Part shown: positions 59,061-62,372 of the stretch, piece by piece | Numbering within the stretch: the first letter of the stretch is position 1 | Layout: each line of letters begins with the position of its first letter | Origin: a virus | Length of the DNA stretch: 64,000 nucleotides | Reading direction: 5' to 3' (one strand) | Virus record (IMG/VR): IMGVR_UViG_3300045988_098562 | Location: 19,484-83,483 of that record | Program-made: the position numbers and the translations under genes | The notes under the pieces: model-generated | What the model was told of the DNA's origin: nothing | What the model saw: the letters and a program-made list of their open reading frames with translations, nothing else | The model's database searches: none

Positions 59061-59155
59061 GTGAGATTCCTGGAATCGAACCAGAACCGACACACACATG
59101 CCGGCACGCCGCGCCATCCCTCTATGATACAGAAATAGACATGCCTATTCTCACG
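59061..59155 (-). other. tRNA-like 3' fragment (T-arm TCTGG-TTCGATT-CCAGG + acceptor-like AATCTCAC) with nearby direct repeat GAACCGACA(CACACA)TGCC
   Basis: Minus-strand GGTTCGATTCC T-loop signature with 5-bp stem; no convincing D/anticodon arms by eye. Confidence 0.3.
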
Positions 59156-59213
59156 AACCGACATGCCAAAACCCAAAACTTAATTTGATGAATAAAATAG
59201 ATTGACAAAAATA

Positions 59214-59537
59214 CTATTCTAATTCTTTTATAATGTCTTTTACGATATTTAGCCTCACCTCCTTCGTTTCTGGACTAATACAGCCAAACCATCCATATAT
59301 CCTCCATTCTTCTTCTGGTTCTGTAGCCATACTTTTCTTTTCCTCCAATTCCGGGAAATATGTTTTCACCATTTTATCTAAATATAACCCATAAAAGGAT
59401 TCTATTTTTTTAGGAGTACTGAAAAACTTAAATACTATATTTCTCAACATGACGCATATATAATCCCCATTCTCTGACCTTTCGATCTCCTCATATACCT
59501 TTTTCCAAATGAATAATCGCTCTTCTTTTGTAAACAT
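59214..59537 (-). CDS. hypothetical protein (107 aa)
   Basis: ORF track. Confidence 0.5.
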   Translation of the reverse strand: MFTKEERLFIWKKVYEEIERSENGDYICVMLRNIVFKFFSTPKKIESFYGLYLDKMVKTYFPELEEKKSMATEPEEEWRIYGWFGCISPETKEVRLNIVKDIIKELE

Positions 59538-59551
59538 ATCTTTCTTTATTT

Positions 59552-59893
59552 TTATGGTATTATTTGACTGTATGCAGACTTTTCCATGTACACAACACTA
59601 TGTTCCTGTCCAAGTATTTTCTTTGCTGCTTCTTTCTTTATCGCGCAATATCTCCCTGTACGATACGGATTCTTTTGATCTGATCCATCCTCAACTTCGA
59701 TAATAAAACAACCTCCGTCATCTATTATCTTTTTGCAATTGTCACATATTTCCCCCGTGCATATATGATGCGGCGCCTGCCCTTTGATGTTATTCCCTAA
59801 TAAAGCAATCCCCATCTCTTCACCGCATACTATGCATAGTTCTATGGATGGATTCAACCCATGCTCTGGATGCAATACAATACCGTCTTTCAT
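59552..59893 (-). CDS. zinc-finger protein (113 aa; CIVCG...CTGEICDNC)
   Basis: Cys clusters. Confidence 0.5.
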   Translation of the reverse strand: MKDGIVLHPEHGLNPSIELCIVCGEEMGIALLGNNIKGQAPHHICTGEICDNCKKIIDDGGCFIIEVEDGSDQKNPYRTGRYCAIKKEAAKKILGQEHSVVYMEKSAYSQIIP

Positions 59894-60294
59894 GTTCTAT
59901 CCTCCTTTATTAATTCTATTATAAACTTTTTATCTTGTTCCCACAATGGCAGCCCTTCTTTTACTGTGTATGCCACTGTTTCCCTCTCTCCTATTAATCG
60001 CACGGCAATCTCTCTTGCTTTCAAGTCATCCTCCTCATGCGATTTGTTTATTAAATCATAGGCACATGATTCCACCTTTTGCCTTTCGATTATTATCGAA
60101 CCCATTAACTCGCTTATATGCGATCCTAAAAACGATAAGACATTAATAGCTTTCCCAATATCATTTGAAATAGCACTTGCTAAATACATCTTATCCATAT
60201 ACTCCGGCAAAGCCTCGTATGCCGTTTCTATGTTTTTATACTGATTTTCGTTTACCTCCCTTTTAATCAGTTCTTCAAATTCTTCTTTTAACAT
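59890..60294 (-). CDS. hypothetical protein (134 aa), first gene of the long leftward operon
   Basis: ATGA-coupled to downstream gene; upstream is ORF-free. Confidence 0.55.
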   Translation of the reverse strand: MLKEEFEELIKREVNENQYKNIETAYEALPEYMDKMYLASAISNDIGKAINVLSFLGSHISELMGSIIIERQKVESCAYDLINKSHEEDDLKAREIAVRLIGERETVAYTVKEGLPLWEQDKKFIIELIKEDRT

Positions 60295-60311
60295 GTTCTT
60301 CCCTATTTTAA

Positions 60312-60345
60312 TGTTGTGTGAGATCGCCGGAATCGAACCAGCCTA
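60312..60345 (-). other. tRNA-like 3' fragment (T-arm GCTGG-TTCGATT-CCGGC + GATCTCAC) 20 nt upstream of operon start
   Basis: Shares TGTGAGAT..GGAATCGAACCAG with element at 59061; cloverleaf cannot be completed. Confidence 0.3.
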
Positions 60346-61039
60346 CCGCACCATGAATCCCATAAAGCAAATGCTCCGATCTTCGCAGACGGGAGCATTC
60401 TGTCTAAAGCATAAGAAAATTAATGAAGAAATTTTTCTCACTTACGCCATAGCATCTAAAATAGCTATCAGCACTATTTCTATGACAAACATAATAGAAA
60501 ATATCTTAAATGCCTTTTTCATATCGCTATCTCCTCCTTTTTATTTTTTTTAGTTCCACAATAAACTGTTCCGGCTCTGCTCCGACCTACGTTCCACCTA
60601 CAACCGCAGGCCTTAGCCCAAGGCGCCGCCTACTCCCCCTCTATGGCAGCCTGTTCGTACCTACAACACCAGTCTCCATCTATACAACTATTACTACGCG
60701 ATAACAAACATTTATCCTTATAATAATCATAAAAAAATACACCTCTCACAACTGTAATCCCTAATTTCTACACAGCTAACTACCTTAGCATATACTATAC
60801 CATCACTGCCTTCTATTCCTTTCACCCCAAAAATAGAACCTTCTCCCTCCTTACTCAAATCTAAGTCAGGCGCAAAGTCATATACGTTCATACCATCCAT
60901 ATTTTAATTGTTAAACATCCCGCTTAAAAAAAAATACTCACATAATGCAGCCCTCAACCCTTAATCTGTTGGAAGGAACCTATATAATGCTGTTTTAAAC
61001 CCTTATCATATTGAATTTTGTGGAAATGATCTACAGAAC

Positions 61040-61212
61040 ACTGTTTTAAAACGCTTATCTATTGAATTTTGTTGGTAGGGAGTTGAATTTTGTTGATAGG
61101 GGGTTGAATTTTGTTGATAGGGAGTTGAATTTTGTTGATGGGGAGTTGAATTTTGTTGATAGGGAGTTGAATTTTGTTGATAGGGGGTTGAATTTTGTTG
61201 ATAGGGGGTGCC
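61040..61212. repeat. iteron-like tandem array: ~7 copies of 24-bp unit TTGAATTTTGTTGATAGGG(A/G)G plus 2 degenerate upstream copies
   Basis: Read directly; alternating AGGGAG/AGGGGG variants; followed by G/C-rich GGGGGTGCCCTCCCCCTCTCC. Confidence 0.85.
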
Positions 61213-61923
61213 CTCCCCCTCTCCAACTCCCGCTAATCCTCCGGCTTTCCGCATAGAACCCACGCCCTACCGCCTCACTACCGGCATACGGAGAGCGCTA
61301 CAAGCTTATACTCTGGCATGGAGTATGGGGGATTTGGAGATAATATAATTCCATAGAGAGAATAGAGAGCCTTCAGCCCACGCCCTACCGCCTGCTTCTC
61401 CTATCAAGATAGATATTCAAACCTATAATCAAAGCCAATAAAGAAAAGCAAAAGACCATTACAACATTATACTGATCCGGTCCGTACTCCAACATAGAAC
61501 GAATACCAACAGAAATAAAATACAAGTCAGCTACTAATAAAAACCACCACATAAAATAAAAAATTTACAATAAGTGTGTCCGAAAATACGGGTATCATAA
61601 AACCTAACTAATTGATAATCAAGCATACCTTATTTTTAAGAAAAGTACAATAAGCCTAATTTTCAATCCATAGAGATGAAAAAGGCGGCATCCGACACCC
61701 TATTTTGGGTCAGAAAACCGCCTCAAGTTTCGTTTTAAACCAATTTTAACGACATGATATAGACAAAATACCGGCATTATATCCAAACTATCATATTTTA
61801 GTTTCGTTTTAGACCAATATAGCTCACATCCGCCGTTCACTCTCAGAATATCCTACCCGTAAATAGAAAGAGTAGGATACAAAAATAGGGCTGCTCCGAT
61901 ATTCGGAACAACCCTACTCCTGT

Positions 61924-62130
61924 TTAAATACTGTTTATGTTTTCCTTCACGTATGTTCGTGATGTATGGACTTTGCGTTTGCATTTGTCCTTTCCCGTAT
62001 CGGCATGATACGCTTCTTTGAGATCACGATACAACATAAATTCACGATACGCTCTTTTCCGCTTTTCTTTAGCTTCTTTCCTGGACAGACCGCGGACATC
62101 TACCATATAAGATTTAAATTTCCTTTCCAT
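61924..62130 (-). CDS. small basic protein (68 aa)
   Basis: K/R-rich ORF. Confidence 0.4.
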   Translation of the reverse strand: MERKFKSYMVDVRGLSRKEAKEKRKRAYREFMLYRDLKEAYHADTGKDKCKRKVHTSRTYVKENINSI

Positions 62131-62139
62131 TTTCTTTAT

Positions 62140-62313
62140 GCTTTAATTATGATTAACCCCATCTATTAAGTGCTTCAATATAGAAACCTTCCGCCTCTTT
62201 ATACTCATTTTCACTAAGTGTTTCCACCGTCTCGATATAGTTACGCAATGTTATTTTTACGCAACTGTTTTTAGATTTATTGAACGCTTCAATTAAAGCG
62301 TTGATCATTGCTT
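62140..62313 (-). CDS. small hypothetical protein (~57 aa, MEKKAMINALIEAFNKSKNS...), below ORF-track cutoff
   Basis: Manual translation of minus strand; stop-free 57 codons starting ATG. Confidence 0.35.
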
Positions 62314-62346
62314 TCTTTTCCATGCTATTATATTATTTGTAATTTA

Positions 62347-62372
62347 GAGGTTGCTCCGGAATCGAACCGGAC
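62347..62372 (-). other. tRNA-like 3' fragment (perfect T-arm TCCGG-TTCGATT-CCGGA + GCAACCTC)
   Basis: Perfect 5-bp T-stem with TTCGATT loop; partial acceptor pairing GGTTGT/GCAACC gives a structure only ~64 nt long, lacking a D-arm. Confidence 0.25.

What the first reader, a model, noticed from the sequence alone, without database searches (positions are those of the whole stretch)
59061..62372. Three tRNA-like 3'-half elements placed immediately upstream of leftward gene starts
Three elements on the minus strand (59061-59155, 60312-60345, 62347-62372) each carry a canonical T-arm: a 5-bp stem, a TTCGATT loop (the GGTTCGATTCC signature), and an acceptor-like 3' strand ending ...TCTCAC or ...CAACCTC. 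I could not complete a standard cloverleaf for any of them. The 5' halves are missing or too short (about 64 nt for the third), and the first is too long (about 93 nt). Elements 1 and 2 share an extended identity, TGTGAGAT..GGAATCGAACCAG. Each lies just 5' of a - strand gene or operon start; element 2 sits 20 nt before the first gene of the long operon. They could be intron-containing or unusual tRNAs. They could also be tRNA-derived att-like remnants, or tRNA-like punctuation marks processed by RNase P/Z to define mRNA 5' ends.
Basis: seen in the sequence. Interest (0 to 1): 0.6.

Follow-up and report, generated by a model that had tools for sequence, protein, structure and literature searches.

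The report
Shrunken tRNA copies heading phage genes
Three short leftovers of the phage's own tRNA genes, cut down to the part that tRNA-trimming enzymes recognise, sit just ahead of three groups of small genes in a human-gut crAss-like phage and probably mark where its long RNAs are cut, as similar elements do in plant mitochondria.

Summary
Three exact GGTTCGATTCC T-arm hairpins lie on the minus strand within 3.3 kb. Each is closed by a 7-position acceptor-like stem plus a C, and each ends 20-23 nt before an ATG.

None is a tRNA. ARAGORN and Rfam find none, and the "intron-containing tRNA-Ala" from ARAGORN -i is a chimera of E2 and E1.

The window is an epsilon crAss-like phage, 92% identical to crAssE-Sib. 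That genome has a real Met-Gln-Arg-Cys tRNA cluster about 4.5 kb upstream. E3 aligns end to end with the phage tRNA-Cys and its leader, so the elements derive from tRNAs.

Across more than 170 related contigs the T-loop is nearly invariant, changing only at the tRNA-variable position. T-stem changes keep pairing, while the central parts vary, shrink or are deleted.

Each element follows a conserved hairpin and marks a junction where downstream gene cassettes are swapped.

No tRNA in 185,579 species genomes shares the E2 or E3 3' half, so the att-remnant reading is not supported.

Best reading, about 0.45: they are processing signals for RNase P and RNase Z, like plant-mitochondrial t-elements. 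Cleavage itself is untested.

The parts
59061..59122 (-). E1 tRNA-like part (62 nt). It has an acceptor-like stem (59115-59120 with 59063-59068), a 10-nt linker, a variable-arm-like hairpin (59087-59104), a T arm (59069-59085) and a position-73-like C at 59061.
   Evidence: Rfam tRNA-Sec local alignment scores 17.2 bits, below threshold. Pair counts give T stem 99.5% paired with 4 of 5 pairs varying, and the inner acceptor 97% paired with one compensatory pair. Variants L029 and L088 keep the inner stem but not the outer one. The variable-arm hairpin is deleted in two backgrounds.
59138..59167 (-). Hairpin upstream of E1: 13 stacked positions, a GUGA loop and one constant G-A mismatch, followed by a U-rich spacer (59123-59137).
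   Evidence: Seven pairs vary on one side only and stay paired; one sequence breaks the terminal pair. The hairpin was first seen as a terminator-like local match.
59041..59060 (-). A-rich 20-nt leader between E1 and the ATG at 59040. This is the junction where the downstream gene differs among relatives.
   Evidence: the downstream gene starts ATGGAAGTA... in some relatives and ATGAGAATA... in others.
60318..60362 (-). E2 tRNA-like minihelix (45 nt). It has a 7-bp acceptor-like stem UGGGAUU/GAUCUCA, a 13-nt linker that looks like a D-arm remnant, a T arm (60326-60342) and a C at 60318.
   Evidence: The fold is the MFE in the common variant and within 0.5 kcal/mol of it in the window variant. 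The T loop and the 3' acceptor strand are invariant and the 5' acceptor strand nearly so (1 variable column) in 39 distinct variants, while the linker has 5 variable columns.
60369..60400 (-). Hairpin upstream of E2 (9 + 4 bp), followed by UUUGCUUUA.
   Evidence: Three pairs show changes on both sides, and 98.8% of cells are paired.
60295..60317 (-). 23-nt A-rich leader between E2 and the ATG at 60294, which starts the 134/113/107-aa cassette.
   Evidence: Alternative cassettes begin here in relatives.
62347..62410 (-). E3 tRNA-like part (64 nt). It has an acceptor-like stem (62404-62409 with 62348-62353, plus a U-U mismatch at the 1-72 position), a degenerate middle arm, a T arm (62355-62371) and a C at 62347.
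   Evidence: It aligns full-length with the phage tRNA-Cys plus its leader (score 47, z 8.5, null maximum 30). The T stem is 100% paired with 2 compensatory pairs. The middle arm is only 79% paired and its loop changes among strains.
62413..62448 (-). Hairpin upstream of E3 (8-bp outer stem), 2 nt before the element.
   Evidence: RNAfold of 62340-62470. A differently sequenced hairpin holds the same place in the divergent relatives L255 and L259.
62324..62346 (-). 23-nt A-rich leader between E3 and the ATG at 62323.
   Evidence: Relatives carry alternative downstream ORFs or shortened leaders.

Best explanation
E1, E2 and E3 are decayed paralogs of the phage's own tRNA genes, of the tRNA-Cys type. 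They have been reduced to the tRNA 'top half': a 7-position acceptor-like stem stacked on a canonical 5-bp T stem with a UUCGAUU loop.

Each is part of a repeated module made of four pieces: a stable hairpin, a 2-15 nt spacer, the tRNA-like element, and a 20-29 nt A-rich leader ending at an ATG.

I propose the elements are transcribed within the leftward early transcripts and recognised by the host tRNA-maturation enzymes. RNase P would cut at the 5' edge, leaving the upstream RNA ending just after its hairpin. RNase Z would cut after the position-73-like C, since no CCA follows. That would free a downstream mRNA with a short unstructured leader.

Because the modules are conserved islands in a fast-changing region, they also serve as homologous-recombination joints at which gene cassettes are exchanged.

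Shown: the anatomy, the tRNA ancestry, selective retention of the top half, and the cassette junctions. Inferred: transcription through the elements, and cleavage by RNase P and RNase Z.
For: - The motif is exact and non-random. All three elements have the 5 + 7 + 5 + 7 + 1 tRNA geometry on the 3' side, with no CCA after it.
- tRNA ancestry. E3 aligns with the phage tRNA-Cys across acceptor, T arm and leader (z 8.5). E2 aligns with it across T arm and leader (z 6.4). The tRNA-Cys leader in relative L255 (CTAAATTAATATAACATG) matches the E3 leader.
- Precedent in the same genome. The four tRNAs examined here (Met, Gln, Arg, Cys) lack encoded CCA. tRNA-Cys ends 17 nt before the next ATG. The cluster is also preceded by a hairpin and a U-run.
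- Selection pattern across more than 170 contigs. T loops have pi 0-0.02 and change only at the tRNA-variable position 59. T stems have pi 0.04-0.16 and remain 99.5-100% paired, with U:A/U:G/C:G series in E1 and two compensatory pairs in E3. In E2 the 3' acceptor strand is invariant and the 5' strand has 1 variable column. The linker, middle arm and variable hairpin vary, shrink or are deleted.
- The E2 minihelix is the predicted minimum-energy fold, or within 0.5 kcal/mol of it.
- Downstream sequence diverges right after the element or within the leader, with at least 2-4 alternative cassettes per element. Recombinants exist that join E2 to E1 (L173, L121).
- Closest precedent. Plant-mitochondrial t-elements were found by the same GGTTCRANYCC screen, and their ends coincide with mRNA ends made by RNase Z and RNase P (PMC1920247).
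- From general knowledge, not tested here: acceptor/T-arm minihelices are sufficient substrates for RNase P, RNase Z and the CCA-adding enzyme.
Against: - There are no RNA data of any kind, so neither transcription nor cleavage is demonstrated.
- All relatives are close (mean column identity 93-96%). Most stem changes are one-sided G:C to G:U. For E1 the shuffle control is not significant.
- Taken as wholes, the elements are no more conserved than third codon positions of neighbouring ORFs: pi about 0.044-0.054 against 0.037-0.076.
- If the upstream hairpins are efficient terminators, the elements would need read-through or an unseen promoter.
- The 1-72 position is mismatched in E1 and E3, and position -1 is not always U. 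Both are suboptimal for RNase P.
- In L255/L259 the E3 copy lies 46 nt from the next ATG, so the spacing is not fixed.
Confidence: 0.45

Rival explanations
1. They are tRNA pseudogenes with no function of their own. They are slowly decaying duplicates of phage tRNA genes, and they look conserved only because the sampled phages are close relatives and recombination keeps homogenising them.
For: They are clearly tRNA-derived. Overall diversity equals that of synonymous sites. Central parts decay and suffer deletions. One recombinant, L173, has a mismatched T stem, and one variant has an A-G mismatch in the T stem.
Against: - Decay is strongly non-uniform. Eighteen T-loop columns at tRNA-invariant positions show 0 changes, against about one third variable columns elsewhere.
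- The only variable loop position is the one that is free in real tRNAs.
- T-stem substitutions are pair-preserving in 99.5-100% of cells, including compensatory doubles.
- All three elements persist in every cassette arrangement and in the divergent L255/L259 lineage.
Confidence: 0.2
2. They are genes for small stable tRNA-mimic RNAs that act in trans. After release they could receive CCA. They could then act as decoys or sponges for a host tRNA-binding factor such as a defence nuclease, RNase P/Z or the CCA-adding enzyme, or work with the phage's own RNA-handling proteins (Ro60-like, PNK, NrnA-like).
For: - The top-half geometry is what the CCA-adding enzyme and several tRNA-binding proteins recognise (general knowledge).
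- E1 and E2 share an acceptor with a G:U at the 3:70 position.
- The E2 linker keeps an invariant GG that could mimic D-loop G18-G19.
- The related genome encodes a Ro60-like protein with a weak YrlA-like hit, plus PNK and NrnA-like enzymes.
Against: - No Y-RNA or tmRNA model matches the elements beyond the T arm.
- The 3:70 G:U is not strictly kept in E1 (36 of 40 variants).
- Their strict placement at cassette heads is not needed for a trans-acting RNA.
- There are no expression data.
Confidence: 0.15
3. They work at the DNA level. Either they are promoters, for example hairpin promoters for the virion-packaged crAss-type RNA polymerase as in phage N4, or they are target sites of a recombinase or nuclease that moves the cassettes.
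For: - They lie 20-29 nt upstream of start codons near the genome terminus defined for crAssE-Sib.
- In phi14:2 the virion RNAP transcribes denatured DNA, and its early promoters have no known motif (10.1101/2020.03.07.982082).
- Cassettes are exchanged exactly at these elements.
Against: - E3 is homologous to a real tRNA gene along its whole length, and the real tRNA-Cys has the same T arm.
- The observed junctions fall at different points (T loop in L173, leader in L121, L279, L176). That fits ordinary homologous recombination, not a fixed cut site.
- The Bacteroides -7 motif TAnnTTTG is not enriched in the window, and no copy lies between a hairpin and its start codon.
Confidence: 0.08
4. 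They are attP-like remnants that copy the 3' end of host tRNA genes and are left from integration events.
For: Phage att sites often carry tRNA 3' halves. E1 and E2 are direct repeats flanking a 1.2-kb gene block.
Against: - No tRNA in one genome from each of 185,579 species carries the E2 or E3 3' half.
- The best match is the phage's own tRNA-Cys.
- The flanked block is one of several alternative cassettes of ordinary small phage ORFs.
- E1 was not included in the host scan.
Confidence: 0.03

Closest known systems
t-elements of plant mitochondria (Hanic-Joyce/Gray; Forner et al. 2007, PMC1920247)
   Same: Both are non-canonical tRNA-like structures recognised by a perfect GGTTCRANYCC T arm outside real tRNA genes. 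Both derive from tRNAs and sit next to protein-coding genes. In mitochondria their ends coincide with mRNA 5' or 3' ends made by RNase Z and RNase P. Real tRNAs do the same job at other genes of the same genome.
   Different: These elements are in a bacteriophage of Bacteroidota-type hosts, not an organelle. They are more reduced, down to a 45-nt acceptor/T-arm minihelix. They are coupled to an upstream hairpin and a short leader as a repeated module, and they coincide with cassette-exchange junctions. Cleavage is not demonstrated here.
mascRNA / MALAT1 and MEN-beta 3'-end tRNA-like elements
   Same: In both cases a tRNA-like structure inside a longer transcript is (or would be) cut by RNase P and RNase Z. 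The upstream RNA is left ending next to a stabilising structure.
   Different: Those elements are eukaryotic and nuclear, the stabiliser is a triple helix, and there is no downstream ORF. There is no homology to the phage elements.
PeSL (promoter-early stem-loop) mobile regulatory cassettes of T4-type phages
   Same: Both are short conserved regulatory modules containing a stem-loop. They flank small variable ORFs in the early or hyperplastic region and act as recombination joints for modular shuffling.
   Different: PeSLs are defined by an early promoter plus a stem-loop and have no tRNA-like part. No promoter could be identified here.
tRNA-like domains of tmRNA and of bacterial/phage Y RNAs (YrlA)
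   Same: All combine an acceptor-like helix and a canonical T arm with a D-loop substitute and no anticodon arm.
   Different: Rfam models for tmRNA and YrlA match only the 15-17-nt T arm (6-9 bits) or nothing at all. There is no tag ORF, no pseudoknots and no Ro-binding stem. The related genome has a separate weak YrlA-like candidate next to its Ro60-like gene.

Membership tests
Canonical tRNA (Rfam RF00005 / ARAGORN) | A full cloverleaf with D arm and anticodon arm, scoring above the detector thresholds. | tested here: not met
   ARAGORN at default finds 0 genes in the window and none at these positions in any locus fetched up. Rfam at gathering score finds no tRNA. At E up to 10, only E1 gets tRNA-Sec at 17.2 bits (cut-off 47), and the others get T-arm-only matches. 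The real phage tRNAs score 43-53 bits.
Canonical tRNA (Rfam RF00005 / ARAGORN) | A stable anticodon across close relatives. | tested here: not met
   The E3 middle loop reads ACAGGGU, ACAGGAU, AUAGGAU, AUAGAAU or AUAAGAU in different strains, and its stem is only 79% paired. E2 has no anticodon arm at all.
Intron-containing (split) tRNA | Two exons that form one cloverleaf, an intron in the anticodon loop, and a conserved anticodon and intron. | tested here: not met
   ARAGORN -i returns a tRNA-Ala(GGC) at 59061-60361 with a 1211-nt 'intron'. It uses E2's T loop as the anticodon stem. The 'anticodon' differs in the common E1 variant, the 'intron' is a swappable ORF cassette of variable length, and no group I or II intron family is found.
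t-element-like tRNA-derived processing signal | A conserved GGTTCRANYCC T arm outside a canonical tRNA. | tested here: met
   There are three exact copies, with T stems 99.5-100% paired across relatives.
t-element-like tRNA-derived processing signal | An acceptor-like stem stacked on the T arm (tRNA top half), with no encoded CCA. | tested here: met
   All three have seven positions plus 5 bp, with no nucleotide between the T stem and the 3' acceptor strand. They are followed by C then AAA, ACA or UAA. The E1 and E3 stems each carry one mismatch.
t-element-like tRNA-derived processing signal | Element ends that coincide with RNA ends made by RNase P and RNase Z. | not testable with these tools
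   No transcript data are available. This is the decisive missing test.
attP / tRNA 3'-half integration site | Sequence identity with the 3' part of a host tRNA gene. | tested here: not met
   Pattern GGTTCGATTCCGGMGMWMYCWC covers E2 and E3. In genome contigs it gave 12 hits, none in a tRNA and one a phage contig. E1 was not scanned.
Y RNA (YrlA) / tmRNA tRNA-like domain | A match to the family covariance model beyond the T arm (Ro-binding stem, or tag ORF and pseudoknots). | tested here: not met
   There is no YrlA match at E up to 10 on any element. tmRNA models match only 15-17 nt of the T arm at 6-9.6 bits.
PeSL-type mobile regulatory cassette | A conserved module at the borders of variable ORFs that serves as a recombination joint. 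| tested here: met
   Alternative downstream ORFs follow each element. E2-to-E1 spacing is about 504, 850, 1190, 1250, 1300 or 2209 nt. Recombinants L173, L121, L279 and L176 show crossovers at the elements.
PeSL-type mobile regulatory cassette | An early promoter inside the module. | tested here: inconclusive
   Sigma-70-type and Bacteroides TAnnTTTG scans are at chance level. The only candidate is TATTTTTG at 59206-59213, about 40 nt upstream of the E1 hairpin.

The most novel reading that the evidence does not exclude
The elements are more than passive cut sites. They would be released as 45-64-nt tRNA top-half mimics, possibly CCA-tailed, that the phage makes early to occupy or mislead a host tRNA-recognising factor such as a defence nuclease, a tRNA-processing or modifying enzyme, or its own Ro60/Y-RNA system. 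Alternatively, their T-arm hairpins could be the so far unknown early promoters of the crAss-type virion RNA polymerase.
Probability: 0.15. Interest if true: 0.8.

Novelty: new variant of a known kind. Interest (0 to 1): 0.5.

Why it matters
If these elements are cut by RNase P and RNase Z, a very abundant group of human-gut phages would be punctuating its early transcripts with worn-down copies of its own tRNA genes. That strategy is known from mitochondria, but to my knowledge it has not been described for phages.

It would explain how short, unstructured leaders are produced for each small early gene in hosts that do not rely on Shine-Dalgarno pairing. It would give a concrete sequence signature for cassette borders in the hypervariable early region. 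It would also show a path by which phage tRNA genes are recycled into regulatory RNA.

There is a practical point for annotation too. One element (E1) is currently covered by a 'hypothetical protein' CDS in the GenBank record of crAssE-Sib (L001 2541-2699).

Tried and rejected
- ARAGORN with introns and lowered thresholds. The intron result is a chimera. At -ps80, E1 becomes a 95-nt 'tRNA-?' with a 4-nt anticodon and E3 a 71-nt 'tRNA-Thr'. Both are forced and below default thresholds.
- The outer acceptor model for E1 (GUGAGA/UCUCAC, 94 nt), which RNAfold and RNAalifold proposed. I rejected it in favour of a separate upstream hairpin plus a 62-nt inner element, for three reasons. The GUGA is the loop of a 13-position hairpin whose substitutions all keep pairing. 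Variant L029 breaks the outer stem but keeps the inner one. L088 has lost the outer strand entirely.
- AlaRS-type identity from the G3:U70-like pair shared by E1 and E2. The pair is not strictly conserved in E1, and the discriminator is C, so I treat it as a curiosity.
- Homology between the E2 hairpin and the hairpin upstream of the real tRNA-Met. The alignment looks convincing by eye (TTTAG..ATGC..CGTCTGYGAAG..GCAT..TTTA) but is not significant against shuffles (z 1.8, 23 of 500).
- Looking for distant relatives through the 179-aa ORF upstream of E3. All 120 listed hits are at least 87% identical, so there was no deeper sampling.
- The ~2.75-kb contigs seen in many assemblies are not a terminal repeat. 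They break at the tandem repeats.
- Promoter and terminator consensus scans are at chance level.
- Pfam and PHROGs on the cassette ORFs give nothing informative.

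
Full report

Yes. GGTTCGATTCC occurs exactly three times in the 64-kb window. All three are on the minus strand within 3.3 kb, at 59072-59082, 60329-60339 and 62358-62368. With one mismatch allowed there are 4 matches against 0.93 expected, and 0 of 100 shuffles reached 4. A relaxed scan for any 5-bp stem around a TTCRANY loop adds no convincing copy.

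On the minus strand each motif is the core of a hairpin with a 5-bp stem and a UUCGAUU loop. Seven nucleotides that pair with an upstream strand follow directly, then a C, then an A-rich stretch of 20-23 nt and an ATG at 59040, 60294 and 62323. ARAGORN finds no tRNA in the window. Rfam at gathering thresholds finds only a HEARO RNA elsewhere.

**2. What genome is this?**

The region is 92% identical to phage crAssE-Sib (OR575929, 151 kb, human gut; deposited as 'csAssE-Sib'). That phage is an epsilon crAss-like phage, described in PMC11054128. That paper reports six tRNAs and says nothing about these elements.

Sib coordinate x corresponds to window 61841+x. The published genome terminus therefore falls between E3 and E2.

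The Sib genome has a real tRNA cluster, Met-Gln-Arg-Cys, in the same transcription direction. It lies about 4.5 kb upstream of E3, outside the window. None of the four encodes CCA. tRNA-Cys ends 17 nt before the ATG of the next ORF.

**3. Anatomy**

Reading the minus strand, all three elements share one module: a stable hairpin, a short spacer, a compact tRNA-like element, an A-rich leader and an ATG.

| Element | Hairpin | Spacer | tRNA-like part | Leader | ATG |
|---|---|---|---|---|---|
| E2 | 60400-60369 | 6 nt | 60362-60318 (45 nt) | 23 nt | 60294 |
| E3 | 62448-62413 | 2 nt | 62410-62347 (64 nt) | 23 nt | 62323 |
| E1 | 59167-59138 | 15 nt | 59122-59061 (62 nt) | 20 nt | 59040 |

- **E2** reads UGGGAUU, then a 13-nt linker, then the T arm, then GAUCUCA, then C. 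This is a bare acceptor/T-arm minihelix. It is the predicted minimum-energy fold in the common variant and within 0.5 kcal/mol of it in the window variant.
- **E3** has an acceptor-like stem of six pairs plus a U-U mismatch, a degenerate middle arm, and the T arm.
- **E1** has a hairpin with a GUGA loop, an inner acceptor GGGAUG/CAUCUC, a 10-nt linker, a variable-arm-like hairpin, and the T arm.

I prefer the inner model for three reasons. The hairpin's substitutions all keep its own pairing. Variant L029 keeps the inner stem but not the outer one. L088 has lost the outer strand altogether.

E1 and E2 share the same acceptor (N-GGGAU-N / N-AUCUC-A plus C) and are evidently paralogs.

**4. They are not tRNAs, split tRNAs, Y RNAs or tmRNA domains**

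- With permissive Rfam settings, E1 reaches 17.2 bits on tRNA-Sec (cut-off 47). E2 and E3 match only as 15-17-nt T arms at 6-9.6 bits. There is no YrlA match. Real phage tRNAs score 43-53 bits.
- ARAGORN with intron search reports a 'tRNA-Ala(GGC)' at 59061-60361 with a 1211-nt intron. This is a chimera of the 5' part of E2 and the 3' part of E1. It arises because the two share their acceptor sequence. It consumes E2's T loop as an anticodon stem, its anticodon differs in the common E1 variant, and the 'intron' is a swappable ORF cassette.

**5. Origin**

E3 aligns over its whole length with the phage's own tRNA-Cys and its downstream leader. The alignment covers the 5' acceptor strand (GGCT-GTTGGTTG against GGCTTGTTGGATG), the T arm, the 3' strand and CTCTAAA. 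The score is 47 against a null maximum of 30, z 8.5.

E2 aligns with tRNA-Cys across the T arm and leader (z 6.4). All three elements carry the tRNA-Cys form of the T arm. In relative L255 the leader after tRNA-Cys (CTAAATTAATATAACATG) nearly equals the E3 leader.

The E2 linker CAUGGUGCGGUAG looks like a D-arm remnant. The elements are therefore internal duplicates of phage tRNA genes that have lost the D/anticodon half.

A host origin is not supported. A scan of one genome from each of 185,579 species for the 22-nt 3' halves of E2 and E3 gave 12 hits. Eleven are chance matches in non-tRNA sequence. One is a phage contig binned into a Veillonella MAG.

**6. Conservation pattern**

Protein- and pattern-based scans of IMG/VR brought in over 250 loci. 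Almost all come from the same phage group (contigs of 80-250 kb), and all three elements occur throughout that group.

- **T loops.** Among distinct variants they are almost invariant (pi 0-0.02). The only change seen is TTCGATT to TTCGAAT, at the position that is free in real tRNAs.
- **T stems.** They are among the most variable parts (pi 0.04-0.16), yet 99.5-100% of cells stay paired. E1 shows a U:A/U:G/C:G series at one pair. E3 shows two pairs with changes on both sides, C:G to U:A.
- **E2 acceptor strands.** Across 39 variants the 3' strand is invariant and the 5' strand has 1 variable column, while its linker has 5 variable columns.
- **Central parts.** The E3 middle arm changes loop and pairing. 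In L255/L259 it is shortened by indels, while the acceptor and T arm persist. The E1 variable-arm hairpin is deleted in two backgrounds.
- **Upstream hairpins.** They are real structures. The E2 hairpin has three compensatory pairs. The E1 hairpin has seven pairs that vary one-sidedly without breaking.

There are caveats. The sample is shallow (93-96% column identity). Most stem changes are G:C to G:U. The shuffle control is not significant for E1. As wholes, the elements are no more conserved than third codon positions.

Even so, the non-uniform pattern is hard to reconcile with neutral decay. Eighteen tRNA-invariant loop columns show no change, while about a third of the other columns vary.

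**7. Cassette junctions**

Sequences of relatives diverge immediately after the element or inside the leader.

- E2 is followed by the 134-aa cassette of this window, or by a different ORF (ATGAAAGAT...). The E2-to-E1 distance is about 504, 850, 1190, 1250, 1300 or 2209 nt.
- E1 is followed by either of two genes.
- E3 is followed by the 56-aa ORF, by the 68-aa ORF directly, or by another cassette.
- L173 is an E2/E1 hybrid with the crossover in the T loop. L121 joins E2 to E1's downstream gene within the leader.

The crossover points differ from case to case. That fits homologous recombination between conserved islands better than a site-specific enzyme. The cassette ORFs have no informative family matches.

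**8. Most likely mechanism**

The retained part is the acceptor/T-arm stack with an intact T loop and no CCA after position 73. From established knowledge of tRNA maturation, not tested here, that is the part RNase P, RNase Z and the CCA-adding enzyme need.

The same genome already places a real, CCA-less tRNA 17 nt upstream of an ORF. It also places a hairpin plus U-run directly upstream of its tRNA cluster. Processing of tRNA-mRNA co-transcripts is therefore expected in this phage anyway.

I infer that the three modules are punctuation marks. RNase P would release the upstream RNA ending at its hairpin. RNase Z would release the downstream mRNA with a 20-29-nt unstructured leader.

Plant-mitochondrial t-elements are the closest known case. 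They were found by the same GGTTCRANYCC screen, and their ends match mRNA termini (PMC1920247).

Confidence is about 0.45, because no RNA ends have been observed. The rivals are:

- non-functional pseudogenes (0.2);
- trans-acting tRNA mimics (0.15);
- DNA-level promoter or recombination sites (0.08), which cannot be excluded because the early promoters of crAss-type virion RNAP are unknown;
- att remnants (0.03).

**9. Verdict**

This is a new variant of a known kind: t-element-like, tRNA-derived processing signals, here in a phage and doubling as cassette joints. Interest is moderate (0.5). The evidence for tRNA ancestry and for selective retention of the top half is good. The function is inferred and directly testable.

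Noticed in passing
window 38111-38349 (-): There is a strong match to HEARO RNA (RF02033): 112.9 bits against a cut-off of 83, covering the full model. This is the RNA associated with HNH/IscB-type endonucleases. The next ORF downstream (37644-37991, 115 aa) has no Pfam match, and no IscB-sized ORF is evident. It may be a solo or degraded element.
   Followed up: partly
window 61062-61206: A 21-bp tandem repeat is present in 6.9 copies at 95% match (TTGAATTTTGTTGATAGGGAG on the plus strand). It sits in a ~1-kb non-coding stretch between E3 and E2, about 640 nt from the genome terminus published for crAssE-Sib (window ~61841). The repeat unit differs in a relative (L209), and many assemblies break there. 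It could be iterons, an origin or a packaging region.
   Followed up: partly
window 63907-64000: A second tandem repeat has a 30-bp unit in 3.1 copies at 98% match. It runs off the window end. The ~2.75-kb contigs common in Logan assemblies span from about here to the 21-bp repeat.
   Followed up: partly
window 60442-60522 (-): A 26-codon ORF encodes a hydrophobic peptide (MKKAFKIFSIMFVIEIVLIAILDAMA). It is preceded by AAAGGAGGAG and lies just upstream of the E2 hairpin. It is well conserved among relatives (pi 0.026).
   Followed up: no
window 59156-59213 and 60402-60441 (-): These are the most conserved stretches of the whole region (pi 0.004 and 0.009, lower than any codon position nearby). 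They are non-coding segments just upstream of (for E1, running into) the E1 and E2 hairpins. The first contains TATTTTTG, a match to the Bacteroides -7 promoter box. They are possible promoters or protein-binding sites.
   Followed up: partly
window 38515-40215 (-): A 566-aa ORF carries SPFH/Band 7 (E 7.6e-26) and flotillin (E 3.5e-9) domains. This is unusual cargo for a phage replication-gene block.
   Followed up: no
L208 22601-22705 (crAssE-Sib 72601-72705, outside the window): There is a weak YrlA (bacterial Y RNA) match: 28.5 bits, E 0.0024, below the cut-off of 69. It lies immediately upstream of tRNA-Tyr, tRNA-Lys and a gene annotated as Ro sixty-related protein. The phage may carry its own Ro/Y-RNA module. 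PNK and NrnA-like genes lie just upstream of E3 in the same genome.
   Followed up: partly
L001 2541-2699 (crAssE-Sib 148558-148716): The GenBank record annotates a 52-aa 'hypothetical protein' CDS that lies over the E1 hairpin and tRNA-like element. It is probably a spurious gene call.
   Followed up: no
L201 (NZ_DXLG01000138.1, 3943 bp): A contig binned into a 'Veillonella sp.' MAG is a fragment of this phage group carrying E2 and E3. It is a binning artefact and not evidence of host.
   Followed up: no
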